Source: Candidatus Nomurabacteria bacterium (GTDB taxonomy: Bacteria; Patescibacteriota; Minisyncoccia; Phycocordibacterales; UBA918). From it: a stretch of DNA of 64,000 bases. The notes beneath the pieces are model-generated. The model made no database searches and had not been told where the DNA came from. It saw only the letters and a list, made by a program, of their open reading frames with translations. This document shows positions 3,672-22,247 of this stretch, piece after piece. Numbering within the stretch: position 1 is the first letter of the stretch; each line of letters starts with the position of its first letter. The translations under genes were made by a program, and so were the position numbers. Location: the NCBI GenBank assembly GCA_020632095.1, contig JACKGF010000001.1, positions 70,549-134,548 on the forward strand, written 5' to 3'.

Positions 3672-3714
3672 CAAAAAACAGGTGACTTAAGTAGCAAAAG
3701 CTACTTAAGTCACC
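3672..3714 (-). terminator. rho-independent terminator for the minus-strand gene 3765..4142
   Basis: Perfect 15-bp stem ggtgacttaagtagc / gctacttaagtcacc with loop aaaa. A T-run on the minus strand follows (A-run 3673-3679 on the plus strand). Confidence 0.5.
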
Positions 3715-3764
3715 GGTTAAATTTGGATGAATATGTTCCTTTTTATTTTTATTCGCTGTCGAGA

Positions 3765-4142: not shown

Positions 4143-4295
4143 TGTTAGTCCTCTGTAGAAAGGAATGTCTCAATTTGAGAATTCAAATTGAGTGTACTGT
4201 AAAACAAATCTTATGTAACTATAGAAGTTTAGTGAGTGCAAGTCAAACAAACGACCATAGTAAGTGGTCGTTTGTTTGACGGTTTGATTTCTGTC

Positions 4296-4826: not shown

Positions 4827-4851
4827 GCGACTATTTTACTACATCTAGATT

Positions 4852-5436: not shown

Positions 5437-5450
5437 GAACAAGAAACATT

Positions 5451-6371: not shown

Positions 6372-6528
6372 GTAAGAGTTGTTATTGTAGGCCACGTAGA
6401 TTTGGCGGGGAGAGTTTTTCAATTAAAACGCTTGTATTTTTATAGTACTGTAGTACAGTTTGACAAACACGACAGTGGGAAAGCTCCGTGATTATTTACG
6501 CAACGTCTATCAGCTAAGCTTTTGTCTT

Positions 6529-9411: not shown

Positions 9412-9427
9412 GGAAGGGGAGTAAAAC

Positions 9428-9455
9428 AAAAGGCCCTATACACAGGGTCTTTTTG
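9428..9455 (+). terminator. possible rho-independent terminator
   Basis: Stem aaaggccct / agggtcttt (one G-U pair) with loop atacac, followed by ttttgttt. Confidence 0.35.
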
Positions 9456-9463
9456 TTTACCTA

Positions 9464-9492
9464 TTGACAAAATGGCAAAAAAGTACTATAAA
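9464..9492 (+). promoter_or_regulatory. sigma70-like promoter giving a leaderless or near-leaderless transcript for the CAP-domain gene
   Basis: Perfect -35 ttgaca (9464-9469), 17-bp spacer, -10 tataaa (9487-9492). ATG 9501 lies 8-9 nt downstream of the -10 and there is no SD. Confidence 0.4.
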
Positions 9493-9500
9493 TATACAAT

Positions 9501-10691
9501 ATGTCAAGCCTAAATCCGAATAAATACGGATTAGACACACTACAAAAAATCTCCATGTCGCTGATGGGGGTTTTGGTACTGATAACTTTTATTGGAGCCA
9601 ATCTGCAGGCTGTTTTCTGGCAGTCATCCAATTGGTTGGTTTCTACCGTTTTACCCGCTGTGGTGGTTGATTTAACTAATCAAGAACGAGCCGATGTTTC
9701 TGCTCAACCATTGCAACGAAGTTCAGTCTTGGATGCTGCGGCAAAGATGAAGGCCGAAGATATGGCCAAAAATGAATATTTTGCTCACTTTAGTCCGACT
9801 GGAGTGTCTCCTTGGTACTGGTTTGATAAATCTGGCTATGTTTATGCTCACGCGGGAGAAAATTTAGCTATTCATTTTACTGATTCTTCAGAAGTGGTTG
9901 AAGCGTGGATGAATTCTCCGGCCCACCGTGAAAACATTGTTAATGGTAAGTTTACCGAAATCGGAGTTGGTACAGCTAAAGGAAAATTTGAAGGTTATGA
10001 TACGGTTTATGTGGTGCAGTTGTTTGGCACACCAGCGGTGGCTCCGGTTGCAAAAGCTACCAAGCCTCCAGTAGAAACAACGAAAGTTTCACCAGTGGTT
10101 GAGTCACCAACCTTGGCGGTAGCAGAAACTCCGGTTGAATCAGAGATAATCGTCTTTGATACACCAGCTGTGCAAGTAAGTAGTAACGAAGTCCCTGTCC
10201 CGGCCACAAAAAGTGAGCTGGCTGTAGAGCAAGTGGAAGTTAATAATGAAGTTGCGGTAGTTGAGTCAGTGTCCTTACCTGAAGTGGTAGTTGAGGAGGT
10301 GGCTGTACCGGTAACTGAAACTGCTTCCGAACCGGTTTTTGTGGAAAGTAACCAAGAACAGCCTATATCTGATCCTTCTGATGAAGTGATGGTGATTGAA
10401 TCACTAGCCATCACTACTTCCTCTGGATTGGCTGTAGCTAATACGGTTACCCCGAATAATGATTCAGGTAAGGCTGGCTTCGCTTCAGTCGCCACTCAAC
10501 CAAACCAGCTTCTACAGTCAATCTACATGATTCTTGGTTTCTTAGTGCTTATCATGCTCACTATCTCAATCGTGGTCGAAGCAAGACGTCTCCACTACAC
10601 ACAAGTGGCCTATGGTTTAGTTTTAATATTTGGTATGGGTGGACTGTGGTTTGTGAATTCACTGCTAACATCAGGGGCCGTTATCCTTTAA
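9501..10691 (+). CDS. CAP/SCP/PR-1-like domain protein with N-terminal TM, Val/Glu/Pro-rich linker and C-terminal TM
   Basis: CAP-domain hallmarks are present: LTNQERA..., AAKMKAEDMAKNEYFAHF, and NSPAHRENIVNGKFTEIGVG (the HxxNIL-type motif). Confidence 0.7.
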   Translation: MSSLNPNKYGLDTLQKISMSLMGVLVLITFIGANLQAVFWQSSNWLVSTVLPAVVVDLTNQERADVSAQPLQRSSVLDAAAKMKAEDMAKNEYFAHFSPTGVSPWYWFDKSGYVYAHAGENLAIHFTDSSEVVEAWMNSPAHRENIVNGKFTEIGVGTAKGKFEGYDTVYVVQLFGTPAVAPVAKATKPPVETTKVSPVVESPTLAVAETPVESEIIVFDTPAVQVSSNEVPVPATKSELAVEQVEVNNEVAVVESVSLPEVVVEEVAVPVTETASEPVFVESNQEQPISDPSDEVMVIESLAITTSSGLAVANTVTPNNDSGKAGFASVATQPNQLLQSIYMILGFLVLIMLTISIVVEARRLHYTQVAYGLVLIFGMGGLWFVNSLLTSGAVIL

Positions 10692-10696
10692 GTTTC

Positions 10697-10728
10697 AAAA
10701 ACCTTTCGGTTAACCGAAAGGTTTTTTA
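10697..10728 (+). terminator. rho-independent terminator
   Basis: Stem aaaaacctttcgg / ccgaaaggttttt with loop ttaa and a T-run. Confidence 0.6.
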
Positions 10729-10809
10729 GGTGTCGTGTGAAAAATTTTGTGTGGTTATACTTTAAATTATTGCTAGCGCTCTTTTGTCTGCAGCAGTATA
10801 CTATTTATA

Positions 10810-11253
10810 ATGAGTAAAACTTCTGAGACAAAAGTTTCTTCAGTGTCTCCGGCTGTAATCGGACCTGAAAATAAGCGAAATCTCTACGCCTCGCAACCGG
10901 CTGCCGGCTTCCCCGCTCCTGGCGATGATTTAGTAGAAAAAGCTTTAGACTTGAATGATTTATTGATTGATAACCCTACCGCTACTTTTTTTGTGCGGGT
11001 GTCTGGCGACTCGATGGAAGATGCCAAGATATTTGCTGGTGATATTTTAGTGATTGATCGGTCAGTTGAGCCAAAATCAGGCATGATTGTAGTAGCGGCT
11101 GTTTATGGTGAGCTAGTGGTGAAAATCCTGCAAAAAACCAACTCCGGATTAGCGCTAATCTCAGCCAGCGAAAACTACGAACCAATTTTAATCAATGATG
11201 AAGAAGGCTGCTTTATCTGGGGTGTGGTTGTAGGTAGTGCACGGGTTTTTTAA
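10810..11253 (+). CDS. umuD: UmuD-like S24 peptidase (LexA C-terminal-domain fold without a DNA-binding domain)
   Basis: Ser-Lys dyad context (FFVRVSGDSMED...GDILVIDRS...GELVVKIL) and a candidate Ala-Gly cleavage site (PAAGFP). The N-terminus has no wHTH, so this is not LexA. Confidence 0.75.
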   Translation: MSKTSETKVSSVSPAVIGPENKRNLYASQPAAGFPAPGDDLVEKALDLNDLLIDNPTATFFVRVSGDSMEDAKIFAGDILVIDRSVEPKSGMIVVAAVYGELVVKILQKTNSGLALISASENYEPILINDEEGCFIWGVVVGSARVF

Positions 11254-11399
11254 CCCCTCACCCCTCAAGCCCTCTCAACCAAAAAGTTAACAAATCTCCA
11301 TCCTTAAACCAATGTCCACACTGCGGATATTGGTTTTTCTTGTACCCACTATAAATATACGTACCAATAAATCCCCTTCCTGTTTGATACAATATTCTA

Positions 11400-14300
11400 A
11401 TGAGACGATCGACCGTCGGTTTTTGTGTAATGTTATTGGCTGTTTTTGGTGTCACGGCTGTTACGCTCCAACCAGATTTTGTCATTCAAGATTTTACCTT
11501 ACGTTCTTCACCTATTCCAGCTATCCTCTATCAACAACCTCTCCTGCAAGCCTCCAGCAACGTACCTACCCCAACCCCAGCTTCCAATCTGGTCTCGATT
11601 CAGTCTCAAGGAGTTACTCAAGCCGATCTCAACAATCGTATTACCGGTCTACTTCTACATATGCACTGGTTATTGAATGATAGAGGACAATCAGCTACTG
11701 TCTCTACCACTCGCACTAACTCTTCCGAATCAAAACGAATCGACCGTCTCGAACGCCAAATCTTCAGTTTCATGGACGAATCAGACGATGATCGCTCAGA
11801 CTTGTCTGACGATATCACTAACGGTGGCTCTTTCCTCAATCCAACTCTCACTACAGCTACTCTCAATGGCACCACCACCGCCGGAGCATTCATTGTGAAT
11901 GGTCGGCTCGGCGTCGGTACTTCTTCACCAGTCGAGCGACTATCAATCAACGGCGCTGTCTATCTAGCCGACACCACTCCCACCAACTCCGCCTCCCGTC
12001 TATACAACACCGCTGGTGGTCTCTATTGGAATGGTTCCTTAGTTGCTGGTGGAGCAGTTGGTAGCTGGACTGGTAGTGGTGGTAATGTTTATCGAGCGAG
12101 TGGGAATGTGGGGATTGGGACGAGTGCACCTGACAAGTTGTTGCATATAAAATCACAGTCCGGTGTTTATCGGTCCCAGATTAGTATAGATGATTCCGCT
12201 AATAATAGTGGATATGCGCGGATAGATTATAATACTGATGATTCAATAAGCTGGAATGCCGGTGTTTATTCAACAAATAGTAGTCCAGATAGAGGGTTTG
12301 CTGTTTCAAATAATTATTCTGGATGGAAGGATCTGCTTAGTGTGAGCCCAAATGGTAATGTTGGCATCGGCACCACCTCATCCCTTGCCAAACTCTCTGT
12401 TAAAGGCAGTGGAACCGGCACCGGCCGTGCTTTTAGTATTACTGATTCTACCAACGTAGAAAAGTTCACTGTGCTGGATAATGGGAAAGTTGTACTGAGT
12501 GGTCGGCAGACTATATACAACGCCGACGCAACTGGTTTTTTAAACTCACTGTACTTTGGTGACGGAGGAGGAAGTTTGTCTCATACATCAGGTAGTGAAG
12601 GGTACGACAATACAGCTGTAGGTATAGGTGCTCTTTATTTTAATACTATTGGTTCTAGTAATACTGCAAATGGCTTAAATAGTTTGTACAGTAACACTAC
12701 AGGCAGTAATAACTCTGCAAATGGCGTAAATAGTTTATTTTATAATACTACAGGCAACAACAATACGGCCAATGGATTCCGTACATTGGAAGCAAACACT
12801 ATCGGTTATAACAATACCGCCAATGGAGCGTATGCTCTTTTGCTTAATACGACCGGAAGCCAAAATACAGCGAACGGTATAACCTCTCTCTATTCTAATA
12901 CCACAGGTTCTAACAACGTGGCTAATGGTATGGAGTCTCTCTACTGGAATACCGTAGGTTACGACAACACTTCAAATGGCGCATATTCACTTTACTTCAA
13001 CATCACTGGTTATTCCAATACCGCAAATGGAAAGCATGCACTTTACTCTAACACTTCTGGATATTACAACACAGCAAACGGAGTTAATGCCGGTCGTTAT
13101 CTTGCAGACGGCACAACAGCCAACCAAACTTCAAGCAACTCCGTGTTTGAGGGTTATGACACCAGAGCTTTAACTGCTAGTGGAACAAATGAAATCGTCA
13201 TTGGAGCCAGCGCCATTGGAAACGGAAGTAACAGCGCCACTCTGGGTAACGATTCTATAACAAAGACGATATTGAAAGGGAGTGTAGGCATCGGCACCAC
13301 TTCACCCCTCGCCAAGCTCTCTGTTACAGGCAGTGGTACCGGCACCGGCCGCGCTTTTAGTATCACTGATTCTGCTAATGCAGAAAAGTTCACTGTACTG
13401 GATAATGGGAATTTAGGGATTGGGACGTCAGTGCCAGAAGGTAAACTCACAGTGAACGGTTCTACAAGTGATACTCCTGGGTCAAATTCACTCTTAACTC
13501 TGTACGCAGGTACTGGGAAATGGGTACAGCGAATTGATTCATCTGGTAACTTAAATTTTGATTCCAACAACGGTGCTAGTATGTACTCCTGGGTGACGAT
13601 AAATAGAGTTGGCAACGTCGGCATCGGCACCACTTCACCCCTCGCCAAACTCTCTGTTAAAGGCAGTGGTACCGGCACCGGCCGCGCTTTTAGTATTACT
13701 GATTCTACCAACGTAGAAAAGTTCACTGTACTGGATAATGGGAATGTGGGGATTGGTACTTCAATTCCTACTGTTCCTTTAGAAGTAATAGCAAAAAGTC
13801 TTAATAAAGGATTGAGAATAACTCGTGACTCCACCAATAACAGTACATTGGAATTTGCAGAAATCGGTGGCATACAGGCGCGTATTTATGGTATCGGTGC
13901 ATCGTCTGCAGGACAGATGGCTTTCCTTACTGGGTCTGGGGGTGGATCTGAGGCAATGAGAATTACTGATACAGGCAATGTTGGTATAGGTACTTCAAGT
14001 CCTAAGACTGCCCTACAAGTCGGAGTGTCAACAGATAATTACGGAGTTTCAGCCTTCACTAAATTGTATACTTCGGGAGGCGGGATACGTGTCGGTTCAG
14101 CGTCTGGGAGCGATTATGGTTATAGAATCGTGAGGGATCCAGGAAGTATATTTGCTCCGGAGTTAAACGGGGATCTTGTATTCATCGGTGATCAAGCGAA
14201 TTCTTTTGGTAATTATGCGTTTTTAAACCAATCAGGCAGTGTTCTCTTAAGAATCCTTGGTGGTGGCAACGTCGGCATCGGCACCACCTCACCCCTTGCT

Positions 14301-16604
14301 AAGCTCTCTGTTAAAGGCAGTGGTACTGGCGCTGGCCGTGCTTTTAGTATCACCGATTCTGCTAATGTTGAAAAATTCACTGTGTTGGATAATGGGAATG
14401 TTGGGATTGGGGCTTCCGTCCCTGGAGCAAAACTAGATATTATTGATGAGTCTCAGCAAGGGTTGCTAACGGCGTTGCGACTAGGAGGTCAAGTTGCCGA
14501 TGATGGGGGTCGTTCTATTGATTTTAGTACGGCAAGTGCACTGAATACTTTTCTTACTGGCGCTCGAATTTCTGGGGTAAGGCACGGCGGTGCTTGGGGG
14601 TCACTCAGATTTTCTACACTAGGAGCTGACGGTCTCCAAGAGCGAGTCCGGTTTAGTCCAGATGGTAGTGTTGGTATTAGTACGACAACTCCGAATGCAA
14701 GACTTTCGATTGTGGGGTCTGGTGCTTCGGTTGTTACCAAGGCACTTCTTGTTTCGGATTCGAATAATGTGCCTTATGTTGTTGCGCATGATGAAGGGGG
14801 AGTTACTATTGGAAAACAAATGATTGTCACTTCCTTGTATACACTTGATGTTGGTGGTTCAGGCGATCAGTTTATTCGGTTAAAATCAATGGATAATGCT
14901 GGAAACGCTGGTGTTAATTTTAGTGGCGCAGGAGACAGGGGTTCCATTTATGGAACATTCGACTACAATATTAAAATAGAACCTAATGCACAGTATGGTT
15001 ATGCAGATGTGATTATAAATCCCAAAAATGGAAGCGCTACTCGGCTTGGTATACTCGATTCAACCCCTGACTTCGGTATTGAATCAGCCGCCACTTCCTC
15101 AAAAGGGTATTTCGGTATTTCGTCTACAGCCGGTGCTGATGGCGATATTTTCATGATTGATCCGAGTGGGAATATGGGAGTTGGGACGACTAGTCCAGGG
15201 GCGAAGTTGGATGTTGCAGGTAATGTATTGTTAGGACGAGGTGGCTTAATAGATACTCAACGCACTCTTTCAATAACTGGGGCAAAGCAAAGCTCTGGTG
15301 CAGACTACGCTCGTGTCGACTTTAAGAACTACGATCAAAATGGATCGTTAGGTGAATATGTTGGTGCCAGAATTAGTTCAGAAAATGCTGCTGGAGCAGA
15401 ATACGGCGACTTACGCTTTTGGACCCGCTCATCAACAATGCGAACCAATCCAGATATGATACTAAATAGTGCAGGAAACGTCGGCATCGGCACCACTTCA
15501 CCACTTGCCAAACTCTCTATTGCTGGTAATGGAACCGGCACCGGCCGCGCTTTTAGTATTACTGATTCTACCAACGTAGAAAAGTTCACTGTACTGGATA
15601 ATGGGAATGTGGGGATTGGGACAACGACGCCGGGGGCTAAGTTGGCAATTAGTGGCGGTAATATTAGGCTTGATAGTGATAGGAAACTTGAGTGGAATTA
15701 TGGATGGGAATATCTTTATGCAAATACATCTTCGGGAAACATCACTGCTTCTGTGAGAACAGGTTTAATTGTTAATGCGGACAACAACGATAACGACCTT
15801 CCTACGCATGTTGAATTTTCGGTACGATCAGGAAGTGCATTATCGGAGTTGTTTAGAATACAAAAGAACGGTAACGTCGGCATCGGGACCACCTCCCCCA
15901 ACAGCGCCCTCGACGTCATTGGTACTATTCAAGCTTCAAACCTACTCGGTGGGGCGGTCAATCTCACCACTGACGCCAACGGAAACATTATACGCGACCC
16001 ATCTGACGCTCGATTGAAGGAAAACATTCAAGAAATCTCTAATCCTCTCGATAAACTACTTAGTCTTCATGGTGTCTCGTATCAATGGAAAGACAAAGAG
16101 CGCTTTGGTGAACAGACAGAAATCGGATTTATTGCTCAAGAAGTTGACTCAATCCTACCTGAAGTAGTGCGCAAAGGCGGTGAATACTTCTCCCTCAACA
16201 CCCGCAACATTTTAGCGGTGGTAATAGAAGGCTTTAAGGAATTGTACGCCAAAGTAATGAGAAATTCCGATAAGATTGATTTGCTTGAACAGCAAAATGC
16301 ATCTTTAGAGCAAAATAATGTCGAACTAGAAACCCGACTCGAAGCCCTGGAAGCTCAGCTAAATGTTACTCCACCGGCACCGGTAGTGGTAGAAGATGAA
16401 GATGAACCGGAACAAGAAGAAACGAATCAGGATGAAGGGTCTGATAGTGCGAACCAAGAGGAAACAGAAGTTGCTGAAGAAGATGGTCTCGAGCCGATAG
16501 AAATAGTTCAAGATGAAGTGGAAGAAGAAACGCCCGCACTTACTACAGAGGAGCCTGAGGCGGATGAAGCTGAAGTTGTGCCAGAGACTGAAATTTCTGA
16601 ATAG
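11400..16604 (+). CDS. 1734-aa phage tail-fibre-like repeat protein with a C-terminal peptidase-S74 intramolecular chaperone domain, then a coiled coil and an acidic tail
   Basis: The repeated motif NVGIGTTSPLAKLSVKGSGTGTGRAFSITDSTNVEKFTVLDNGNVGIGT occurs at least 6 times. The C-terminal signature DARLKENIQEISNPLDKLLSLHGVSYQWKD...EIGFIAQEVDSILPEVV matches PF13884 / peptidase S74. Confidence 0.75.
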   Translation: MRRSTVGFCVMLLAVFGVTAVTLQPDFVIQDFTLRSSPIPAILYQQPLLQASSNVPTPTPASNLVSIQSQGVTQADLNNRITGLLLHMHWLLNDRGQSATVSTTRTNSSESKRIDRLERQIFSFMDESDDDRSDLSDDITNGGSFLNPTLTTATLNGTTTAGAFIVNGRLGVGTSSPVERLSINGAVYLADTTPTNSASRLYNTAGGLYWNGSLVAGGAVGSWTGSGGNVYRASGNVGIGTSAPDKLLHIKSQSGVYRSQISIDDSANNSGYARIDYNTDDSISWNAGVYSTNSSPDRGFAVSNNYSGWKDLLSVSPNGNVGIGTTSSLAKLSVKGSGTGTGRAFSITDSTNVEKFTVLDNGKVVLSGRQTIYNADATGFLNSLYFGDGGGSLSHTSGSEGYDNTAVGIGALYFNTIGSSNTANGLNSLYSNTTGSNNSANGVNSLFYNTTGNNNTANGFRTLEANTIGYNNTANGAYALLLNTTGSQNTANGITSLYSNTTGSNNVANGMESLYWNTVGYDNTSNGAYSLYFNITGYSNTANGKHALYSNTSGYYNTANGVNAGRYLADGTTANQTSSNSVFEGYDTRALTASGTNEIVIGASAIGNGSNSATLGNDSITKTILKGSVGIGTTSPLAKLSVTGSGTGTGRAFSITDSANAEKFTVLDNGNLGIGTSVPEGKLTVNGSTSDTPGSNSLLTLYAGTGKWVQRIDSSGNLNFDSNNGASMYSWVTINRVGNVGIGTTSPLAKLSVKGSGTGTGRAFSITDSTNVEKFTVLDNGNVGIGTSIPTVPLEVIAKSLNKGLRITRDSTNNSTLEFAEIGGIQARIYGIGASSAGQMAFLTGSGGGSEAMRITDTGNVGIGTSSPKTALQVGVSTDNYGVSAFTKLYTSGGGIRVGSASGSDYGYRIVRDPGSIFAPELNGDLVFIGDQANSFGNYAFLNQSGSVLLRILGGGNVGIGTTSPLAKLSVKGSGTGAGRAFSITDSANVEKFTVLDNGNVGIGASVPGAKLDIIDESQQGLLTALRLGGQVADDGGRSIDFSTASALNTFLTGARISGVRHGGAWGSLRFSTLGADGLQERVRFSPDGSVGISTTTPNARLSIVGSGASVVTKALLVSDSNNVPYVVAHDEGGVTIGKQMIVTSLYTLDVGGSGDQFIRLKSMDNAGNAGVNFSGAGDRGSIYGTFDYNIKIEPNAQYGYADVIINPKNGSATRLGILDSTPDFGIESAATSSKGYFGISSTAGADGDIFMIDPSGNMGVGTTSPGAKLDVAGNVLLGRGGLIDTQRTLSITGAKQSSGADYARVDFKNYDQNGSLGEYVGARISSENAAGAEYGDLRFWTRSSTMRTNPDMILNSAGNVGIGTTSPLAKLSIAGNGTGTGRAFSITDSTNVEKFTVLDNGNVGIGTTTPGAKLAISGGNIRLDSDRKLEWNYGWEYLYANTSSGNITASVRTGLIVNADNNDNDLPTHVEFSVRSGSALSELFRIQKNGNVGIGTTSPNSALDVIGTIQASNLLGGAVNLTTDANGNIIRDPSDARLKENIQEISNPLDKLLSLHGVSYQWKDKERFGEQTEIGFIAQEVDSILPEVVRKGGEYFSLNTRNILAVVIEGFKELYAKVMRNSDKIDLLEQQNASLEQNNVELETRLEALEAQLNVTPPAPVVVEDEDEPEQEETNQDEGSDSANQEETEVAEEDGLEPIEIVQDEVEEETPALTTEEPEADEAEVVPETEISE
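12357..12485 (+). repeat. intragenic near-identical ~130-bp direct repeat, copy 1
   Basis: The sequence aatgttggcatcggcaccacctcatcccttgccaaactctctgttaaaggcagtgg...ctggataatggg is shared at over 90% nucleotide identity with copies 2-5. Confidence 0.8.
13284..13409 (+). repeat. intragenic ~130-bp repeat, copy 2
   Basis: Near-identical to copy 1. GC content is higher than the surrounding gene body. Confidence 0.8.
13614..13755 (+). repeat. intragenic ~130-bp repeat, copy 3
   Basis: Near-identical to copy 1. Confidence 0.8.
14268..14410 (+). repeat. intragenic ~130-bp repeat, copy 4
   Basis: Near-identical to copy 1. Confidence 0.8.
15477..15620 (+). repeat. intragenic ~130-bp repeat, copy 5. 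A partial sixth copy lies at about 15876-15905.
   Basis: Near-identical to copy 1. Confidence 0.8.
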
Positions 16605-16630
16605 GAAATACTATATATCAAGCAAACGAG

Positions 16631-16665
16631 AAAACGGCCAGCCCCTAAGGGTTGGCCGTTTTTCT
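16631..16665. terminator. bidirectional terminator between convergent genes
   Basis: Stem aaaacggccagccc / gggttggccgtttt (one G-U pair) with loop ctaa, flanked by an A-run and a T-run. Confidence 0.55.
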
Positions 16666-16669
16666 TAAA

Positions 16670-16957
16670 TCACATCTGATTGGGCCAACGTAGTGAGGTA
16701 TGCAAGATACGAATTATGTAAATTTCATCTTCACTTACCTTGTAGGCAATAATATAAGGAGTATTAGAAAGTACCAGTTCTCGAGTATTCTTTACGGGAC
16801 CGATGCGACCTGAAAGTGGAGCGTTTAAGAGTTGAGTATGTATCGCATTGTAAATACGGGTTACCACTTTTATTGCAGCCACTTTATTGTCACGTTCTAT
16901 GTATGAATGAATTATTTCTAAGTCGTGTTTAGCCGGTTTAGTCCAATGTATTTCCAT
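16670..16957 (-). CDS. RelE/ParE-family type II toxin
   Basis: A 95-aa basic protein with the RelE/ParE-like pattern (IEIHWTKPAKHDLEIIHSYI...YRIIY-like tail). It sits 3 nt downstream of an RHH antitoxin gene. Confidence 0.7.
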   Translation of the reverse strand: MEIHWTKPAKHDLEIIHSYIERDNKVAAIKVVTRIYNAIHTQLLNAPLSGRIGPVKNTRELVLSNTPYIIAYKVSEDEIYIIRILHTSLRWPNQM

Positions 16958-16960
16958 AGG

Positions 16961-17209
16961 TTATTTGAGAGACTTTATCCAAGCGGCCACCTCATCGTCA
17001 CTCACAAGTTCTCCACGATCAGCTGCAGCGACACCACGTTCGATTTCTCCAGATAGCCAATCTTGATGAGAAACGTACTGCTCTAGTGCTTCTGCTACCA
17101 AAGAAGAGCGACTACGATTAGTCGCTTTAGCTAGTCGTGCTAGTCGAGTACGAGTCTCGGCGTCAGTCCGCACGGAGATAATCGCATCATTTTTAGTTTT
17201 TGTACTCAT
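16961..17209 (-). CDS. RHH (CopG/ParD-like) antitoxin. The ORF extends to 17239; the likely start is MSTKTK at 17209.
   Basis: Ribbon-helix-helix region (ISVRTDAETRTRLARLAKATNRSRSSLVAEALEQYV), paired with the toxin directly downstream. Confidence 0.6.
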   Translation of the reverse strand: MSTKTKNDAIISVRTDAETRTRLARLAKATNRSRSSLVAEALEQYVSHQDWLSGEIERGVAAADRGELVSDDEVAAWIKSLK

Positions 17210-17375
17210 ATGTATACATATTACTACAAATAATATCATTATTCAATAATTAGAAATTAGATCGTGGACGAAGCATAGTTTTCAACAAAATTAAGTGTTA
17301 AAAAGGTGGTATCTCCAAAGCCGCCTTTTTAATACACCTCTTGCGCCCCCCCTACACTTGCTAGAATATACACAT

Positions 17376-18938
17376 ATGATTCGAACTTTCTTCAAAGGAC
17401 TCGGGCTGTGTCTACTACTCGGTTTCTTCACCACCACCCACGCCGCTGTCACTCCAGACGCACCTACCAACTTCATCACTACTTGGAACACAGAAAACTC
17501 CGGCACCAGCGCCAACAACCAAATCACCATCCCCGGCACTGGTGCCGGATACAACTACGAAATTTACTGGGAAAACCTCGCCAGTTCCACCATGAATGGT
17601 ACTACCAGTGTTATTACCACCAGTTCACACACTTTAACTTTCCCTGAGCCTGGTATTTATGAGGTGCAGGCGAGTGGGACTTTCCCTCAAATATACTTCA
17701 ATAACGTTGGCGACAAAGATAAGATTCTAACAGTGGAGCAGTGGGGGGATATTGCTTGGGTGAGTATGCGCTTTGCATTTAGGGGTTGTAGCAATTTACG
17801 TGTGCTGGCTACCGATGCTCCTGATTTGAGTGGGGTGACTGATATGGCATATATGTTCAATCTCGCTGCTTCTTTTAATGAACCAATCAATCACTGGAAT
17901 GTATCAAATATTACTGATATGCAAGGTGTATTTCATAGGGCGTACAAGTTTAACCAACCACTTGATAATTGGGATGTGTCTAGTGCTGTAGATATGCATT
18001 CTTTGTTTGCTTATTCTGCATTTAACCAGAATATAAATAATTGGGATATCTCAAAAGTAAAGGTTATTTCATCAATGTTTTTGTTTAATGCGCAATTTAA
18101 CCAACCATTAAACAATTGGAACACTGCCAGTGTTACTAGTATGCGAGCCACATTTCTCGGCGCTCCGTTCGATCAAGATTTGTCTTCCTGGGATATGGCT
18201 AGTATTGCAACTAGTTCTGCTGGTAACGGAGCTTTTAATGGTTTGGAGTTAATGTTCCTAAACTCTGCTCTCTCCACCCAAAACCTCGACTCCACCCTCA
18301 CATCCTGGGCCGCCCAATCCCTTCAATCAGACGTCCCTTTCCACCTCGGCCTAAAAACATACTCCGCCACCGGCGCCGCCGCCCTAGCCACCCTCCGCAA
18401 CACATACAACTGGGATATAACCGAACAATACCAAGCAGAGTACCGCTCGTCATCAGACGCTATCTTAGAAGGTACAAGTATCCAGTCACCCTTAGACCTA
18501 AATTCCACTACCACAGCCGTCACTATCGTTCCTAAAAAACATTGTACCTTCATACAATGGAGTGACGGTAACACCGATAACCCTAGAACAGACGTCATGA
18601 CTGACAACATTAGTGTAGTCGCTGAACTCTCCTGTTCTGCCAGTCAAAGTACCAGCGCCCGTACCCAAGCTATCAAGTCAATCCAGTTCGGTAATCCTGC
18701 CCAAGCTGAAGATATTCTAAATAAACACAATATCACCCTTGATACTGTTACCAGCACCCCAAAGACAACCTTCACTCCACCCGAAACCCTAGCCGAATCA
18801 CTGGCTTTAGTGAAAGACATTCCAAAGCATTTACCAAACCTTGACCCAGTCAAAGACAAGGAGGTGATAGAGAAGCTAATCAGTATCTTTGAGGAGTTGG
18901 TGGAGTTGTTGCGGAAGTTGGAAGTGCTTAAGGGGTAG
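17376..18938 (+). CDS. DUF285 (Mycoplasma-type FNQ/WDVS repeat) secreted surface protein. The ORF track starts at GTG 17295; the first ATG is at 17376.
   Basis: Signal peptide MIRTFFKGLGLCLLLGFFTTTHA. At least six tandem repeats of the DUF285 type (FNEPINHWNVSNITDMQGVF / FNQPLDNWDVSSAVDMHSLF / FNQNINNWDISKV...). Confidence 0.65.
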   Translation: MIRTFFKGLGLCLLLGFFTTTHAAVTPDAPTNFITTWNTENSGTSANNQITIPGTGAGYNYEIYWENLASSTMNGTTSVITTSSHTLTFPEPGIYEVQASGTFPQIYFNNVGDKDKILTVEQWGDIAWVSMRFAFRGCSNLRVLATDAPDLSGVTDMAYMFNLAASFNEPINHWNVSNITDMQGVFHRAYKFNQPLDNWDVSSAVDMHSLFAYSAFNQNINNWDISKVKVISSMFLFNAQFNQPLNNWNTASVTSMRATFLGAPFDQDLSSWDMASIATSSAGNGAFNGLELMFLNSALSTQNLDSTLTSWAAQSLQSDVPFHLGLKTYSATGAAALATLRNTYNWDITEQYQAEYRSSSDAILEGTSIQSPLDLNSTTTAVTIVPKKHCTFIQWSDGNTDNPRTDVMTDNISVVAELSCSASQSTSARTQAIKSIQFGNPAQAEDILNKHNITLDTVTSTPKTTFTPPETLAESLALVKDIPKHLPNLDPVKDKEVIEKLISIFEELVELLRKLEVLKG

Positions 18939-19062
18939 ATAAATAGCTTTTCCAGTTATTGAATAGAAGGATAGGTAAACAGCTCTCATAGGGTTGTTTT
19001 TTATTGGCTTACTCTGCAGATGAGGTGCGTAAGAAACAAGTATCTTGTGCGTCATAGTCAGT

Positions 19063-20262
19063 ATGACAACACACTCACAACCAAGCTTGCTATTACAGCT
19101 TTACGTCGGATTGATATTAATAGGTTTTTTCTTGGTGCCGGCGGTGGCGCAAGGAGCTAGTGCTGAGGTGGGAGCTTGGGTTCCTTGGTGGTCTGAGGAG
19201 GCCGGGGCTAAAAGTGCCACTGACAATATTAAAGATTTAGATATAATTTACCCTTTCGTATTTGAGGTAAATTCTGATGGCACACTTAAGAATCGGGTAG
19301 ATTTTAGTGATTCACATTGGAAAAATTTATTCAGAAAAGCCAATTCTAGCCGAGTAGACATTATTCCGACCATTGCTTGGTTTGATGGGGACCAGATTCA
19401 CGCTGTTTTGAGTGATAAAACTGCCCGTAAGGAGCATATTGCTGAAATTTCAGACATGGTGAAAAAGAATAGGTTTGCAGGGGTTAATATTGATTATGAA
19501 GAAAAAAACAGCGAAACTATTGACGACTACTCACTATTTCTTAAAGAGTTGAAAAGGGCTTTGGGCAAGAAAAACCTTACTTGTACGATAGAAGCCCGCA
19601 CCCCACCAGATTCACGCTGGAAAGAAATTCCGACTGAAATTAAGTATGCCAATGACTACCGGGCAATGAATAAGTACTGTGATTGGGTAGAGATTATGGC
19701 TTATGACCAACAACGGGCTGATTTAAAGCTGAATGACGAAAGACGAGGGGTACCATATATGCCAGTAGCGGATAAGGATTGGGTAGAAAAAGTGATTAAG
19801 TTGGCGGTAGAAGACATAGATAACGATAAAATTATGTTAGGAGTAGCTACTTATGGACGAGCTTGGGATGTAACAGTGGCTCCCGATTGGTACCGAGACT
19901 ACAAGAAAGCGGCTACTTTGAACCAACCACGCATTCTTGAATTGTCCAAGAAATACAACTCACCAATCGGTCGTACTGACGGTGGGGAAGCGGTAATCAC
20001 ATATTTTCCTGACGATTCTCCGTACAAAGTGTTTAATCAATTACCAACTCCAGCCGGCACTCCAAAAGGCTTTGAAGCGGCCGCTAAGGCACTCTTAGTA
20101 GCTAATTTAGCTAAGGTTGAGGTACCAGTCCGTTTTATCACTTGGAGCGACGCTATAGCGATACAAGATAAGGTTGATTTAGTGAAGAAATATAAGCTTA
20201 AGGGGACAGCTGTCTTTAAGGTTGATGGGGAAGAGGATAAAGCAATTTGGAAGCTGTTTTAA
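19063..20262 (+). CDS. secreted GH18-like (chitinase/peptidoglycan-hydrolase-like TIM-barrel) protein. The ORF track starts at TTG 19045.
   Basis: Signal peptide. [10 protein letters not shown] aligns to the GH18 DGxDxDWE catalytic motif, with Asn in place of the middle Asp. A downstream YD/MAYD region is also present. Confidence 0.55.
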
Positions 20263-20276
20263 GGTTTGATAAAGGA

Positions 20277-20325
20277 AAATCCCCATACAAAATGCGAAGC
20301 ATTCTGTATGGGGATTTTTGTTGTT
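20277..20325 (+). terminator. rho-independent terminator
   Basis: About 20-bp stem aaaatccccatacaaaatgc / gcattctgtatggggatttt (one mismatch) with loop gaa and a T-run. Confidence 0.6.
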
Positions 20326-20490
20326 TAAGGTGTACAATCAAGCACTCTCGAAAACCGGAAAATATTTTTCCGTCACGAAAGATTTAGCTGGTCGAGTCGT
20401 GCCCTCGTTTCCTTTTTGCTGGTGAACAAATTGATAGCCTGGTAGGTCTTTTTTTTTGCTTGTTACCCCGCACGATTCTTGCTGCAGGTT

Positions 20491-20961
20491 TTACATTTTG
20501 CTATAAAATTCTGCCAACTCCTCGTAAACATGTTTCTTTAATTTGGTAGTGTTTGCGATAGCTTCGGGAAAAGTAGTCCAGCGGAAGTCAGAAAATTCAT
20601 CGTCGGTTGCCTCGGACAAGTTAATTTCTTTGTCAGGCTTTAGTTCTAAAAAGAACCAGCGGTGGGCTTGGCCAAAGCGGGAAATAGTGGAATCAATTAC
20701 AGAGTTGTCATCTTGATAAACTGTCCACCTAGGCATTTCAATAACAGATGAAAAGTCTTCAATCGTGAGCCCAACCTCTTCTTTAAGTTCTCTCCACAGT
20801 GTCTCTTCTACACTCTCACCAAGATCAACTCCTCCCTGTTGGAACTGCCAGACACCAATTGGATAGGCAGCTCTTTGAAACAAGGCCACTTCATTCTTTT
20901 GATTATAAATAACCGTTCCTACTCCAGCTCTAAAAAATCGAGTGCTCATAGAGTGAAGCAT
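20491..20961 (-). CDS. NUDIX hydrolase, RppH-like (RNA pyrophosphohydrolase family)
   Basis: Nudix box GGVDLGESVEETLWRELKEEVGL. The WQFQQGG and RWFF motifs are collinear with E. coli RppH. Confidence 0.75.
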   Translation of the reverse strand: MLHSMSTRFFRAGVGTVIYNQKNEVALFQRAAYPIGVWQFQQGGVDLGESVEETLWRELKEEVGLTIEDFSSVIEMPRWTVYQDDNSVIDSTISRFGQAHRWFFLELKPDKEINLSEATDDEFSDFRWTTFPEAIANTTKLKKHVYEELAEFYSKM

Positions 20962-20990
20962 AGCATGTAAATTGCTATACTATAATTTAT

Positions 20991-22247
20991 ATGAAAACCT
21001 GGATTGGGGTGTTGGATTGCAATAATTTCTTTGTATCGTGCGAACGGTTGTTTCGTCCGGACTTACGTAACAAACCAGTGGTGGTACTGTCGAGTAATGA
21101 TGGTTGTGTGGTGGCACGCTCACAAGAGGTAAAGGACATGAATGTCCCTATGGGTGTCCCTTACTTTAAGATAAAAGACACGCTAAAAAAGGCTGATTCT
21201 ACAACCTTTTCTTCACACTTTGCTTTATACCGAGATATTTCTAGAAGAGTGTTTGAGGTGATGCGTGATGAGCTCGAAAACGTTGAACAATACTCGATTG
21301 ACGAGGCTTTTTTCTTATTCAAGGGTTCTGAAAAAGCAGTGTCTGAGCTAGCAAAAAGAGTGAGAGCGGCAGTTGAATTGCAGGTTGGGATACCAGTTTC
21401 AGTCGGGGTGGGTTACTCAAAAACTCAAGCCAAGTATGCCAATTTTTTAGCTAAAAAGAGTAAAGGAGTGTGTGTTTTGAATTCAAGAAAGTGGTTAAAA
21501 ATTGCTCCAGAAGTACCCTTATCAAGGCTTTGGGGAGTGGGCAGGAGACTGGATCTTAACTACAAAAAACATGGTTTGTTGACTGTGGCAGATGTGTTAA
21601 CAGCTGACAATTCACGTCTGGATCAGTTGTTTGGAATAGTAGGAATGCGATTAAAACAAGAGTTGTCTGGCGTAGCAATCTATGGGTTTGAGGGTAGGAT
21701 TGATGTTAAACAAAGCATTACGAGCTCGCGGTCATTTGGAAATACTACCAATGATTTACCAGTTTTGGCTGATGCTTTGGCTTATCATACTCGTCATGCG
21801 TTAGTAGATTTGCGAGCTATGGCAAGATATGTTTCGGTAGTGACAGTGTCAATTGGGACTAGCAGATATGGAGATTTTTTACTAAAAGGGAGGTCTAAGA
21901 AGATATTTTTGGAGAAACCAACTAATGATACTTTGGTTGTTTTAAAAGAGGTAAATAAGGCCTTGGTAGAGTTATTTGAGTCTGGCGTGCCGTACAAAAA
22001 AGCGGGGGTTACTTTGTCGCAGTTTAGTCCAATTGATGCCTATCAAAACAGTTTATTTTCTAATAACAACGAATCAGTAACCCAGTCATTGATGCCTGTT
22101 TTAGATTCGATAAATCTCAAGGCTGGCAGGGAAGTGGTGCTGGTCGGCAGTCGTCTGCAGAGTAATAATTGGCAGTCTTTATCAGACTCAAAATCACCAG
22201 CCTATACGACAAGATGGAAAGATTTGTTTACAGTGAAGGCAAAATAA
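20991..22247 (+). CDS. umuC: Y-family translesion DNA polymerase (UmuC/DinB-like)
   Basis: N-terminal palm motif LDCNNFFVSCE (compare DCDAFYASVE), SIDEAFF, and a little-finger region. It is divergent from the NUDIX gene across a 29-bp spacer. Confidence 0.8.
   Translation: MKTWIGVLDCNNFFVSCERLFRPDLRNKPVVVLSSNDGCVVARSQEVKDMNVPMGVPYFKIKDTLKKADSTTFSSHFALYRDISRRVFEVMRDELENVEQYSIDEAFFLFKGSEKAVSELAKRVRAAVELQVGIPVSVGVGYSKTQAKYANFLAKKSKGVCVLNSRKWLKIAPEVPLSRLWGVGRRLDLNYKKHGLLTVADVLTADNSRLDQLFGIVGMRLKQELSGVAIYGFEGRIDVKQSITSSRSFGNTTNDLPVLADALAYHTRHALVDLRAMARYVSVVTVSIGTSRYGDFLLKGRSKKIFLEKPTNDTLVVLKEVNKALVELFESGVPYKKAGVTLSQFSPIDAYQNSLFSNNNESVTQSLMPVLDSINLKAGREVVLVGSRLQSNNWQSLSDSKSPAYTTRWKDLFTVKAK

What the first reader, a model, noticed from the sequence alone, without database searches (positions are those of the whole stretch)
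11400..16604. Phage tail-fibre-type protein with self-cleaving S74 chaperone domain and concerted-evolution DNA repeats
The 1734-aa protein carries the tail fibre/spike C-terminal intramolecular chaperone signature (about 16005-16340: DARLKENIQ...GVSYQWKD...IGFIAQEVDSILPEVV), then a coiled coil and an acidic tail. Its body contains at least five copies of a ~130-bp DNA repeat (12357, 13284, 13614, 14268 and 15477) that are over 90% identical at nucleotide level, although the spacers between copies differ.

This pattern indicates ongoing gene conversion or recombination among modules. That mechanism could vary fibre length or receptor specificity. The repeats are GC-richer than the gene body. 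The gene sits between umuD and umuC beside a toxin-antitoxin pair, consistent with a prophage remnant or tailocin-like cargo. It also generates spurious antisense ORFs.
Basis: partly seen in the sequence, partly recalled or inferred. Interest (0 to 1): 0.55.

Follow-up and report, generated by a model that had tools for sequence, protein, structure and literature searches.

The report
Cell-surface fibre resembling phage tail fibre
This gene of a tiny symbiotic (Patescibacteria/CPR) bacterium encodes a long, secreted surface fibre related to phage tail fibres, with a self-cleaving folding domain and recombining repeat modules; it is a cellular gene, not a prophage remnant, and belongs to an already recognised kind of protein.

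Summary
The observation largely holds. ORF 11400-16604 (1734 aa) carries a full-length Peptidase_S74 domain (E=6e-20) with the Ser1535/Lys1540 SDxxxK dyad, then a long helix and a 64-aa acidic tail. Five copies of a 135-145-nt repeat exist at the stated positions, but they are 82-93% identical, not all above 90%.

The protein is homologous to phage tail fibres. However, it has an N-terminal hydrophobic signal/anchor segment, and no phage structural gene, integrase, tRNA or att-like repeat lies anywhere in the 64 kb. Its neighbours are secreted or surface proteins.

The exact protein is annotated in a 997-kb Candidatus Nomurabacteria contig. The closest solved relatives are the Bdellovibrio MAT surface fibres (Bd2133, Bd1334, Bd3182).

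A syntenic Kaiserbacteria genome has umuD-GH18-NUDIX-umuC without the fibre, ParE/RHH and DUF285 genes. These three therefore form a 7.8-kb variable island.

Recombination is supported by three findings: synonymous codons are shared 76% versus 36% expected, module copies cluster by protein across the family, and a related scaffold is 100% identical up to 11708 and then diverges, with a module junction inside the GNVGIGT motif.

A second independent assembly reproduces the repeat layout exactly. Verdict: ordinary-to-moderately interesting new member of a known kind.

The parts
11400..16604 (+). Fibre gene, 1734 aa. Identical to NCBI MCB9813853.1, 'tail fiber domain-containing protein [Candidatus Nomurabacteria bacterium]'.
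11412..11468 (+). N-terminal hydrophobic segment, aa 5-23, preceded by MRRS. It is a Sec signal peptide or an uncleaved signal anchor.
   Evidence: It is the only strongly hydrophobic 19-aa window in the protein (Kyte-Doolittle mean 2.27). AF2 predicts a helix at aa 2-22. No SignalP-type tool was available.
11532..11804 (+). Lineage-restricted N-terminal module, aa ~45-135. Motifs: P(Y/L)L ... R(F/I)xGxLLHxxWL ... RLxRQIxSxMDD, then an acidic stretch. Two helices are predicted.
   Evidence: Exhaustive phmmer against 1.84e9 representatives finds only 11 relatives, and most of these are themselves S74 fibres. Alignment A2. The AF2 model is low-confidence, with helices at aa 74-97 and 110-140.
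11709..11768 (+). Population-level recombination breakpoint or polymorphic patch. Scaffold L005 is 100% identical to the window over 10970-11708, then falls to 60-92%. All five SNPs that assembly L004 has in this gene lie here, and three of them are shared with L005.
11901..15911 (+). Fibre body made of modules. The modules are delimited by 15 'capping-loop' motifs (V/L/M)G(I/V)(G/S)(T/A)xx(P/S)xxxL, typically GNVGIGTTSPxAKL.
   Evidence: Regex counts. HMMER alignment of these motifs to Bd2133 (8OND) and Bd1334 (8OML). Foldseek hits to 8OND, 8ONC and 8OML.
12585..13094 (+). Block of ten 17-aa (51-nt) repeats, NTxGxxNTAxGxxSLxx, resembling a YadA head. It is the region best conserved across the thousands of homologues.
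   Evidence: (D4). No Pfam model hits it. PHROG 23837 and 4636 hit this region.
12354..12488 (+). A-module copy 1, aa 319-363. It encodes GNVGIGTTSSLAKLSVKGSGTGTGRAFSITDSTNVEKFTVLDNG.
13278..13412 (+). A-module copy 2, aa 627-671.
13611..13745 (+). A-module copy 3, aa 738-782. It is the copy closest to the consensus.
14265..14399 (+). A-module copy 4, aa 956-1000.
15474..15608 (+). A-module copy 5, aa 1359-1403.
16002..16172 (+). Peptidase_S74 / intramolecular chaperone core, aa 1535-1591. The catalytic Ser1535 codon is 16002-16004 and the Lys1540 codon is 16017-16019. The predicted self-cleavage site is immediately N-terminal to Ser1535.
   Evidence: Cleavage itself is inferred from Bd3182, endoNF and T5 pb1 (PMC10769870).
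16200..16361 (+). Long C-terminal helix of the chaperone domain, aa ~1601-1654.
   Evidence: AF2 helix at model residues 243-296, pLDDT 85-92. A weak ZapB-like match.
16410..16601 (+). Acidic, probably disordered tail, aa 1671-1734, with 23 Glu and 5 Asp in 64 residues.
   Evidence: AF2 pLDDT below 50. Similar Pro/Glu/Thr tails occur in homologues.
16631..16662 (.). GC-rich hairpin with T/A runs on both sides, between the convergent fibre and parE genes. It is probably a bidirectional terminator.
   Evidence: (I7)
11254..19044 (.). 7.8-kb variable island: fibre, ParE/RHH toxin-antitoxin pair (16670-17239, -) and a DUF285/PARCEL surface protein (17295-18938, +). The island is absent from the syntenic Kaiserbacteria locus L002.
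   Evidence: No boundary repeats or integrase.
10810..11253 (+). umuD-like S24 autoproteolytic subunit. It forms the left border of the island.
19045..22247 (.). Conserved right flank: GH18 (19045-20262, +), NUDIX (20491-20961, -) and umuC-like Y-family polymerase (20991-22247, +).

Best explanation
The gene encodes a cellular, Sec-exported, homotrimeric beta-helical surface fibre of a Patescibacteria (CPR; Nomurabacteria/Kaiserbacteria-type) bacterium. It is a cell-encoded relative of phage tail fibres. Its logic matches the S74 subgroup of the Bdellovibrio 'mosaic adhesive trimer' (MAT) fibres.

Proposed mechanism:
1. The N-terminal hydrophobic segment directs export and probably tethers the protein, together with a small helical N-terminal module shared by a handful of related fibres. 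This step is inferred.
2. The body is a chain of about 15 modules, each opened by a GNVGIGTxxPxxKL capping loop, plus a block of ten 17-aa repeats. This is shown by sequence, with the fold matched to MAT structures.
3. The C-terminal S74 domain (Ser1535/Lys1540, followed by a long helix) nucleates trimer folding from the C-terminus. It then cleaves itself off together with the acidic tail, exposing the distal tip. The domain and the dyad are shown. Cleavage is inferred from Bd3182, endoNF and T5 pb1.
4. The fibre most likely mediates attachment to a partner cell or surface. This step is inferred from the MAT analogy and the surface-protein neighbourhood.

Five 43-45-aa modules are kept similar at the DNA level by recent intragenic duplication and/or gene conversion. 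Recombination at the shared loop motif, and replacement of the distal part of the gene between strains, vary the fibre. This is supported but not proven.

The gene lies in a 7.8-kb variable island with a ParE/RHH pair and a DUF285 surface protein, not in a prophage.
For: S74 domain:
- Pfam E=6e-20, full length, with the SDxxxK dyad conserved across homologues.
- The AF2 model has pLDDT ~90 over the S74 domain and helix.
- Foldseek hits MyRF ICA 7DC3 (E=8e-6, TMt 0.65), endoNF CIMCD 3GW6/3GUD and T5 pb1 4UW8.

Relation to MAT fibres:
- The best PDB sequence hits are Bd2133 8OND (6e-9) and Bd1334 8OML (1.5e-5), aligned through the GNVGIGTxxPxAKL loops.
- Foldseek also hits 8OND, 8ONC (Bd3182) and 8OML.
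- The MAT description is in PMC10769870.

Cellular rather than viral:
- The exact protein sits in a 997-kb Ca. Nomurabacteria contig.
- A single N-terminal hydrophobic segment is present.
- No phage structural or integration gene was found among the window ORFs tested.
- There are no tRNAs.
- Neighbours CAP, SpaA/PG_binding, DUF285/PARCEL and GH18 all have hydrophobic N-termini.
- More than 3800 homologues exist in CPR, Bacteroidota, Limnobacter and Bdellovibrionales genomes.

Island: the syntenic Kaiserbacteria locus shares 50-72% aa identity over ten genes but lacks the three island genes.

Recombination:
- Identical-aa codons use the same codon 76% of the time, against 36% expected.
- Within-protein module identity is 86-98%, against at most 77% to modules of other proteins. 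The same by-protein clustering is seen in P0030, P0109 and P0117.
- 41 of 66 informative site pairs fail the four-gamete test, with P~0.005 under a crude tree-plus-homoplasy simulation.
- Scaffold L005 is 100% identical over 739 nt, then drops to 60-92%. It then jumps at the loop motif straight into an A-module that is only 80-83% identical to any window copy.

The N-terminal module is shared with only 11 proteins. Most of these are S74 fibres with different bodies.
Against: - There is no experimental evidence for export, trimerisation, cleavage, surface display or adhesion.
- The signal/anchor call rests on hydropathy and a low-confidence AF2 helix only.
- The monomer AF2 model of the fibre part is poor (pLDDT 35-80), so beta-helix similarity rests on modest Foldseek scores plus sequence alignments.
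- The N-terminal region does not look like the ~130-aa beta-rich MAT N-terminal domain. It is predicted helical or disordered, with mean pLDDT 47.
- The protein does hit phage tail-fibre PHROGs strongly, and it sits in a strain-variable island next to a toxin-antitoxin pair. An ultimately viral origin of the gene therefore cannot be excluded.
- L005 is a 1.4-kb short-read scaffold. It could be a chimera with an unseen paralogue.
- The simulation behind the four-gamete P value is crude. Parsimony scores of all 15 topologies are similar (41-47), which is also what near-simultaneous duplications would give.
Confidence: 0.7

Rival explanations
1. One reading: the gene is a phage tail fibre or spike left behind by a degraded prophage or a tailocin cluster that inserted between umuD and umuC.
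For: - PHROG tail-fibre families hit at 4.8e-45 and 1.8e-41.
- 536 phage records contain partial homologues.
- The S74 domain is typical of phage fibres.
- The gene lies in a 7.8-kb indel next to a ParE/RHH pair.
- NCBI names it 'tail fiber domain-containing protein'.
Against: - No other phage gene, integrase, tRNA or boundary repeat was found in the 64 kb.
- The N-terminal signal/anchor segment is not a feature of virion fibres.
- The N-terminal module is shared with other long S74 fibres rather than with phage fibre attachment domains.
- The best phage matches are only 24-31% identical and partial.
- No close relative was found in IMG/VR.
- GC3 is 0.366, within the 0.33-0.39 range of the flanking core genes.
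- The closest solved structures are cellular Bdellovibrio fibres.
Confidence: 0.08
2. The five similar DNA copies reflect only a few recent intragenic duplications or insertions of one module. There is no ongoing gene conversion, and the similarity is simply young age.
For: - Synonymous sites are far from saturated, with 76% same-codon use.
- All 15 tree topologies have similar parsimony length (41-47), as expected for near-simultaneous duplication.
- Copy 3 differs from the consensus at only 1 site, so it looks like a source copy.
Against: - The copies are dispersed with unrelated flanks and sharp boundaries at the loop motif, which requires five separate precise insertions.
- There are 6 conflicting bipartitions among 12 informative sites, and the excess of four-gamete failures has P~0.005.
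- The same within-protein homogeneity recurs independently in other family members.
- The related allele in L005 carries a module more diverged (80-83%) than the window's copies are from each other.
Confidence: 0.25
3. The nucleotide similarity of the repeats is merely a by-product of strong protein-level constraint on a structural module, with no shared recent DNA ancestry.
For: The 43-aa module is conserved at the protein level in other CPR fibres at 60-77% identity.
Against: - Identical amino acids use the identical codon in 76% of cases, against 36% expected from local codon usage.
- The two GNVGIGT motifs of each unit keep distinct codon sets (GGCAACGTCGGCATCGGCACC versus GGGAATGTGGGGATTGGGAC) in every copy.
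- Other loop-delimited modules in the same protein share only 45-54% nucleotide identity with the repeat.
Confidence: 0.03
4. The repeat arrangement is an assembly artefact, from collapsed or mis-joined repeats.
For: Two public short contigs end or change inside or next to a repeat copy. MCA9357115 ends at aa 358, and L005 changes at 12121.
Against: - An independent 93.7-kb assembly from another sample is collinear with no indel and has 0 differences across 12343-15622.
- The copies differ at 7-18% of sites.
- They share at most 86 identical bases in a row.
- The reading frame is intact across all junctions.
Confidence: 0.03

Closest known systems
Bdellovibrio bacteriovorus MAT (mosaic adhesive trimer) fibres, S74 subgroup, e.g. 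Bd3182 (PDB 8ONC); also Bd2133 (8OND) and Bd1334 (8OML). Caulton et al. 2024, PMC10769870.
   Same: - Cell-encoded rather than viral.
- N-terminal export signal.
- Long fibre of beta-helix modules carrying the GNVGIGTxxPxAKL-type capping loops, aligned directly.
- C-terminal S74 domain with the SDxxxK dyad.
- Mosaic logic: a constant N-terminal end and a variable distal end.
- These are the top sequence and fold hits in the PDB.
   Different: - The host is a CPR/Patescibacteria bacterium, not a diderm predator.
- At 1734 aa it is larger than the ~1000 aa typical of MATs.
- The N-terminal region is an unrelated, apparently helical module with only 11 relatives, not the conserved ~130-aa beta-rich MAT domain.
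- It contains a 17-aa repeat block and five near-identical 43-aa modules.
- It has an extra 64-aa acidic tail after the chaperone.
- The literal published loop consensus (V-G-G/N-pi-x-x-P-x-x-x-L) is one residue shorter than the motif here.
Phage tail fibres and spikes with a C-terminal intramolecular chaperone domain: K1F endosialidase endoNF (3GW6/3GUD), T5 L-shaped fibre pb1 (4UW8), T4-type long tail fibre (6F45).
   Same: - S74/CIMCD domain, fold and catalytic dyad.
- Trimeric fibre body homologous to PHROG tail-fibre families and to fibres of Roseobacter, Synechococcus and Thermus phages.
   Different: - No virion gene context.
- Has an N-terminal signal/anchor.
- Only 24-31% identity over partial lengths.
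- No phage-type N-terminal attachment domain was detected.
Myelin regulatory factor (MyRF) ICA domain, PDB 7DC3.
   Same: It is the best structural match for the S74 region (E=8e-6, TMt 0.65, 27% identity). The self-cleaving trimerisation device is the same.
   Different: MyRF is a eukaryotic membrane-bound transcription factor, in which cleavage releases the N-terminal part from the membrane. Here the anchor is N-terminal and the released piece would be the C-terminal chaperone.
Trimeric autotransporter adhesins (YadA-like). This is the label JGI gives to some homologues.
   Same: Long, repeat-rich, presumably trimeric adhesin. The 17-aa NTxGxxNTAxG repeats resemble YadA-head repeats.
   Different: No YadA anchor, head or stalk Pfam hit was found. 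There is no C-terminal beta-barrel translocator, and the C-terminus is an S74 chaperone instead.

Membership tests
Peptidase S74 / C-terminal intramolecular chaperone domain (CIMCD) | Match to PF13884 above the gathering threshold. | tested here: met
   71.7 bits against a cut-off of 22, E=6.1e-20, profile 1-58/58, aa 1535-1591.
Peptidase S74 / C-terminal intramolecular chaperone domain (CIMCD) | Ser-Lys catalytic dyad in an SDxxxK motif at the start of the domain. | tested here: met
   S1535-D-A-R-L-K1540. Ser and Lys are invariant in the 15-sequence alignment A1.
Peptidase S74 / C-terminal intramolecular chaperone domain (CIMCD) | Chaperone fold: a small alpha/beta core followed by a long helix that forms the trimeric coil. 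| tested here: met
   AF2 pLDDT 85-92 over aa ~1538-1654. Foldseek hits 7DC3, 3GW6, 3GUD and 4UW8.
Peptidase S74 / C-terminal intramolecular chaperone domain (CIMCD) | Autoproteolytic release after trimer folding. | not testable with these tools
   Needs expression of wild type against S1535A, as was done for Bd3182 S782A (PMC10769870).
MAT (mosaic adhesive trimer) fibre superfamily of Bdellovibrio | N-terminal signal peptide. | tested here: inconclusive
   MRRS followed by a 19-aa hydrophobic stretch, the only one in the protein. No signal-peptide predictor was available, so it is undecided whether the segment is cleaved or acts as an anchor.
MAT (mosaic adhesive trimer) fibre superfamily of Bdellovibrio | [quoted passage not shown] | tested here: inconclusive
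   Leans towards not met. The region has only 11 relatives among 1.84e9 representatives. AF2 predicts helices at aa 74-97 and 110-140 and no beta structure, but mean pLDDT is 47.
MAT (mosaic adhesive trimer) fibre superfamily of Bdellovibrio | Trimeric beta-helix fibre with recurrent capping loops. | tested here: met
   15 loop motifs. HMMER aligns them to Bd2133 and Bd1334 chains. Foldseek hits 8OND, 8ONC and 8OML with probability 1.00. The trimeric state itself was not modelled.
MAT (mosaic adhesive trimer) fibre superfamily of Bdellovibrio | C-terminal S74 domain or an alternative adhesive tip. | tested here: met
   S74 is present.
MAT (mosaic adhesive trimer) fibre superfamily of Bdellovibrio | Display on the cell surface and a role in handling another cell. 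| not testable with these tools
   Inference only.
Prophage / tailocin tail-fibre gene | Adjacent virion or tail-module genes (baseplate, tape measure, sheath/tube, capsid, terminase). | tested here: not met
   Pfam and PHROG scans of the ORFs tested across 1-64000 find none.
Prophage / tailocin tail-fibre gene | Integration signature: integrase, tRNA or att direct repeats at the borders of the indel. | tested here: not met
   No tRNA, no integrase, and no direct or inverted repeats at 11254 or 19044.
Prophage / tailocin tail-fibre gene | Sequence homology to phage tail fibres. | tested here: met
   PHROG 9942, 18345, 5668 and 1980. 536 phage records match at 24-31% identity.
Trimeric autotransporter adhesin | C-terminal YadA-type beta-barrel anchor and YadA head/stalk domains. 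| tested here: not met
   No such Pfam hit even at E<=1. The C-terminus is S74 plus an acidic tail.

The most novel reading that the evidence does not exclude
CPR/Patescibacteria episymbionts use phage-fibre-derived, S74-matured trimeric surface fibres as their host-recognition adhesins. These fibres carry their own N-terminal membrane-anchor module. Their specificity is diversified in natural populations in two ways: intragenic module conversion or recombination at the GNVGIGT loop motif, and allelic replacement of everything distal to a constant N-terminal anchor (breakpoint at 11709). This would be a bacterial counterpart of phage host-range evolution and of Bdellovibrio MAT 'tip swapping'.
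Probability: 0.3. Interest if true: 0.6.

Novelty: new member of a known kind. Interest (0 to 1): 0.35.

Why it matters
How ultrasmall CPR bacteria recognise and hold on to their host cells is largely unknown. The literature retrieved here concentrates on type IV pili.

A family of long, S74-processed, phage-fibre-like surface proteins with strain-level modular variation is a concrete candidate for a host-range determinant. It could be tested by cryo-ET, proteomics or genetics in cultivable Patescibacteria.

For annotation, the case shows that 'tail fiber domain-containing protein' plus a nearby toxin-antitoxin pair should not be read as a prophage. For this window, though, the finding is essentially a correctly recognised domain in a protein class already described in Bdellovibrio.

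Tried and rejected
1. Search for close relatives of the whole protein in IMG/VR viral contigs: none.
2. Two exact-pattern scans of JGI metagenome contigs, one with the repeat core and one with the gene's first 40 nt: 0 hits each. Strain comparison therefore had to rely on ENA/NCBI cluster members.
3. Word-indexed homologue search with the N-terminal 167 aa returned nothing, not even the protein itself. The exhaustive phmmer search was needed instead.
4. The look-up of encoding contigs with the NCBI copy P0001 found nothing on record. The ENA twin P0122 worked.
5. NCBIfam has no model for the fibre. Pfam has none for the 17-aa repeat block or the N-terminal 320 aa, even at E<=1.
6. Target-site duplications or inverted repeats at the island borders: none found.
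7. Rfam and tRNA scans of the window: empty.
8. The AF2 model of the N-terminal 250 aa was too poor (mean pLDDT 47) to justify a fold search.
9. The genome-contig scan with UmuC returned only three loci. One of these (L002) was long enough for synteny.
10. The literal published MAT loop regex does not match. Alignment-based evidence was used instead.
11. Antisense and overlapping ORFs (13154-13873 and others) have no Pfam match and were treated as spurious.
Full report
**1. What is in the sequence**

ORF 11400-16604 (+) is intact and encodes 1734 aa. Pfam gives one significant family, PF13884 Peptidase_S74. The hit is E=6.1e-20, 71.7 bits against a gathering score of 22, covering the whole 58-position profile at aa 1535-1591, which is nt 16002-16172.

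The domain begins with S1535-D-A-R-L-K1540. This is the SDxxxK Ser/Lys dyad, and both residues are invariant in an alignment of 15 homologous C-termini.

An AlphaFold2 model of aa 1359-1691 has pLDDT 85-92 over the S74 core and a 54-residue helix at aa ~1601-1654. It is poor elsewhere. Foldseek against the PDB returns three groups of hits:
- the MyRF ICA domain (7DC3, E=8e-6, TMt 0.65);
- the Bdellovibrio fibres Bd2133 (8OND), Bd3182 (8ONC) and Bd1334 (8OML);
- the phage chaperones of T5 pb1 (4UW8) and endoNF (3GW6/3GUD).

The last 64 residues are 44% Glu/Asp.

**2. The repeats**

The repeat finder reports five in-register copies of ~160 nt at 12343, 13267, 13600, 14254 and 15463, with spacings of 924, 333, 654 and 1209 nt. 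Column-by-column comparison shows a sharply bounded core of about 135-145 nt, with flanks that agree no better than chance.

In frame, each copy encodes GNVGIGTTSPLAKLSVKGSGTGTGRAFSITDSTNVEKFTVLDNG followed by the next GNVGIGT loop. Pairwise nucleotide identity over 144 nt is 81.9-93.1%, mean ~87%. Amino-acid identity is 81-96%.

Where two copies have the same amino acid, they use the same codon in 76% of cases, against 36% expected from local codon usage. The first and second GNVGIGT motifs of each unit also keep two different codon sets in every copy. Other loop-delimited modules of the same protein share only 45-54% nucleotide identity with the repeat. The similarity is therefore shared DNA ancestry, not just protein constraint.

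Repeat GC is 0.48-0.51, against 0.452 for the gene and 0.426 for the window.

**3. Not an artefact**

The protein cluster contains a second full-length copy from an independent ENA assembly (ERZ27248697, 93.7-kb contig). It is collinear with the window over 24,896 nt, with 28 SNPs and no indel, and has no difference anywhere in 12343-15622. The longest exact run shared by two copies is 86 nt.

A third public fragment (MCA9357115) ends inside copy 1. This shows that short-read contigs can break there.

**4. Organism and context**

The exact protein is NCBI MCB9813853.1, 'tail fiber domain-containing protein [Candidatus Nomurabacteria bacterium]', on a 997-kb contig.

The window carries no tRNA and no Rfam hit. 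Pfam and PHROG scans of its ORFs find no capsid, portal, terminase, tail, baseplate or integrase gene. The genes identified are of three kinds:
- housekeeping genes: a CNNM/CBS protein, a pseudouridine synthase, a sigma factor, Hsp20 and an ABC transporter;
- many secreted or surface proteins: SpaA/PG_binding, CAP, DUF285/PARCEL, GH18, WxL-interacting, cohesin, dockerin and fn3 proteins;
- a 7799-aa giant protein.

Around the fibre the gene order is: umuD-like S24 (10810-11253), fibre, ParE (16670-16957, -), RHH antitoxin (16961-17239, -), DUF285 (17295-18938), GH18 (19045-20262), NUDIX (20491-20961, -), umuC-like (20991-22247).

A Kaiserbacteria MAG locus (L002) is syntenic. It has SpaA-CAP-umuD-GH18-NUDIX-umuC-p384-p362-p138-p644 at 50-72% aa identity, but lacks the fibre, ParE/RHH and DUF285 genes. 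Its umuD and GH18 are 30 nt apart.

Window 11254-19044 is therefore a 7.8-kb variable island. GH18 and NUDIX already separate umuD from umuC in the relative, so no umuDC operon has been split. No direct or inverted repeats mark the island borders. The fibre's GC3 (0.366) is within the 0.33-0.39 range of the flanking core genes, whereas DUF285 is atypical at 0.473.

**5. What kind of protein it is**

More than 3800 homologues score E<=1e-5. Many come from CPR lineages (Nomura-, Campbell-, Moran- and Yonathbacteria, Saccharimonadaceae), Bacteroidota, Limnobacter and Bdellovibrionales, and most carry PF13884.

The best sequence matches among solved structures are the Bdellovibrio fibres Bd2133 (8OND, 6e-9) and Bd1334 (8OML, 1.5e-5), aligned through the GNVGIGTxxPxAKL loops. 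They are followed by MyRF and a T4-type long tail fibre for the S74 part.

Caulton et al. 2024 (PMC10769870) define these MAT fibres as cell-surface trimers with four features:
- a signal peptide;
- a conserved N-terminal domain;
- a beta-helix body with capping loops;
- either an S74 chaperone (13 of 21 proteins, SDxxxK, self-cleavage shown for Bd3182) or another adhesive tip.

The window protein has 15 such loops, a block of ten 17-aa NTxGxxNTAxG repeats and the S74 end.

It begins with MRRS plus a 19-residue hydrophobic stretch, which is the only one in the protein. This argues for Sec export and against a virion component.

Its N-terminal 167 aa have only 11 relatives among 1.84 billion representatives. 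Most of those are themselves loop-containing fibres of different lengths. They end in S74, a coiled coil and a Pro/Glu-rich tail, and they share the motifs RFxGxLLHxxWL and RLxRQIxSxMDD.

AF2 predicts this region as a transmembrane helix plus two helices, but with low confidence. It does not look like the beta-rich MAT N-terminal domain.

My conclusion is that the protein works like an S74-type MAT fibre. It belongs to the broad class of cell-encoded S74 fibres, but strict MAT membership is unproven.

Homology to genuine phage fibres is real but distant. PHROG tail-fibre families hit at up to 4.8e-45, and 536 phage records match at 24-31% identity with partial coverage. No close relative was found in IMG/VR.

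**6. Recombination and concerted evolution**

Several lines of evidence bear on this:
- **Codon sharing.** See section 2.
- **By-protein clustering.** The same 43-aa module occurs in other family members (P0030 Campbellbacteria, P0109, P0117, P0110). Copies group by protein: 86-98% within this protein against at most 77% to any other, with near-identical pairs or quartets within the others.
- **Conflicting sites.** Among the five copies, 12 informative sites define 6 conflicting bipartitions, and 41 of 66 site pairs fail the four-gamete test. A crude simulation of tree-like evolution with homoplasy reaches that value in ~0.5% of runs. The model is rough, and all topologies are nearly equally parsimonious, so this is supportive rather than decisive.
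- **A related allele.** A 1.4-kb scaffold from another metagenome (L005) is 100% identical to the window over 10970-11708, which spans the umuD 3' end, the spacer and the first 309 nt of the fibre gene. Identity then drops to 60-92%. At the loop motif at ~12121 the scaffold continues directly into an A-module that is only 80-83% identical to any window copy, so it skips the 84-aa module present here. It then terminates.
- **A shared SNP patch.** The five SNPs that distinguish the second assembly within the gene all lie in 11709-11768, and three of them are L005 alleles.

This pattern suggests allelic replacement distal to a constant N-terminal anchor, with junctions in the shared motif. The caveat is that L005 is short and could be chimeric with an unseen paralogue.

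**7. Verdict**

The S74, tail-fibre-type and recombination parts of the interpretation are supported. The prophage/tailocin part is not.

The best explanation is a Sec-exported, S74-matured trimeric surface fibre of a CPR bacterium, probably an adhesin, encoded in a small toxin-antitoxin-bearing variable island. It is a new member of a known kind.

Its modest interest lies in two points. It is a candidate host-recognition structure for an episymbiotic lineage. It also shows population-level modular variation.

Noticed in passing
window 8458-8496 (inside the 983-aa SpaA/PG_binding gene, 6460-9411): Seven of the 28 SNPs between the window and the independent assembly L004 cluster within 39 nt. 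This looks like a short recombination or conversion patch in another surface-protein gene.
   Followed up: no
window 30734-54133 (+), with 54139-55728: A giant 7799-aa ORF (DUF2341, pentaxin/LamG-like and Ig-like domains in the first 3000 aa scanned), followed by an fn3/PAP_N protein. This is a very large surface protein for a ~1-Mb genome.
   Followed up: partly
window 28814-30355, 25391-27325, 62360-63505: A cohesin-domain protein and two dockerin-domain proteins lie in the same CPR region. This suggests a cohesin-dockerin surface assembly system.
   Followed up: no
window 12585-13094 (fibre aa 396-565): Ten 17-aa (51-nt) repeats, NTxGxxNTAxGxxSLxx, plus the following ~60 aa (…NEIVIGxxAIGxGSNSxxLGNDSITKTILKG) form the segment most conserved across thousands of homologues, at 50-60% identity. 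No Pfam or NCBIfam model covers it.
   Followed up: partly
window 17295-18938 (+): The DUF285/PARCEL-repeat surface protein in the same island has unusually high GC3 (0.473 against 0.33-0.39 for its neighbours). This hints at a separate, more recent acquisition.
   Followed up: no
window 11306-11336 and 16631-16662: There are terminator-like hairpins between umuD and the fibre gene, and between the convergent fibre and parE genes. The fibre gene therefore appears to be its own transcription unit.
   Followed up: no
L002 (Kaiserbacteria MAG JAGQMJ010000009) 2185-16294 against window 6460-27325: The order of ten genes is conserved between genomes labelled Nomurabacteria and Kaiserbacteria at 50-72% aa identity. 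A 100%-identical fragment of the fibre is deposited under a Kaiserbacteria label (MCA9357115). The taxonomic labels of these MAGs are therefore inconsistent.
   Followed up: partly
L006 (Logan SRR15882951_664745) 269-2827, protein P0124: This 852-aa relative shares the N-terminal module but seems to lack S74. It ends in a different C-terminal segment (…APDYVFDDPAYTHLTIEEIDAFIEENDHLPWL…) plus an acidic/Ser-Thr tail, which may be an alternative tip, as in the non-S74 MAT fibres.
   Followed up: no
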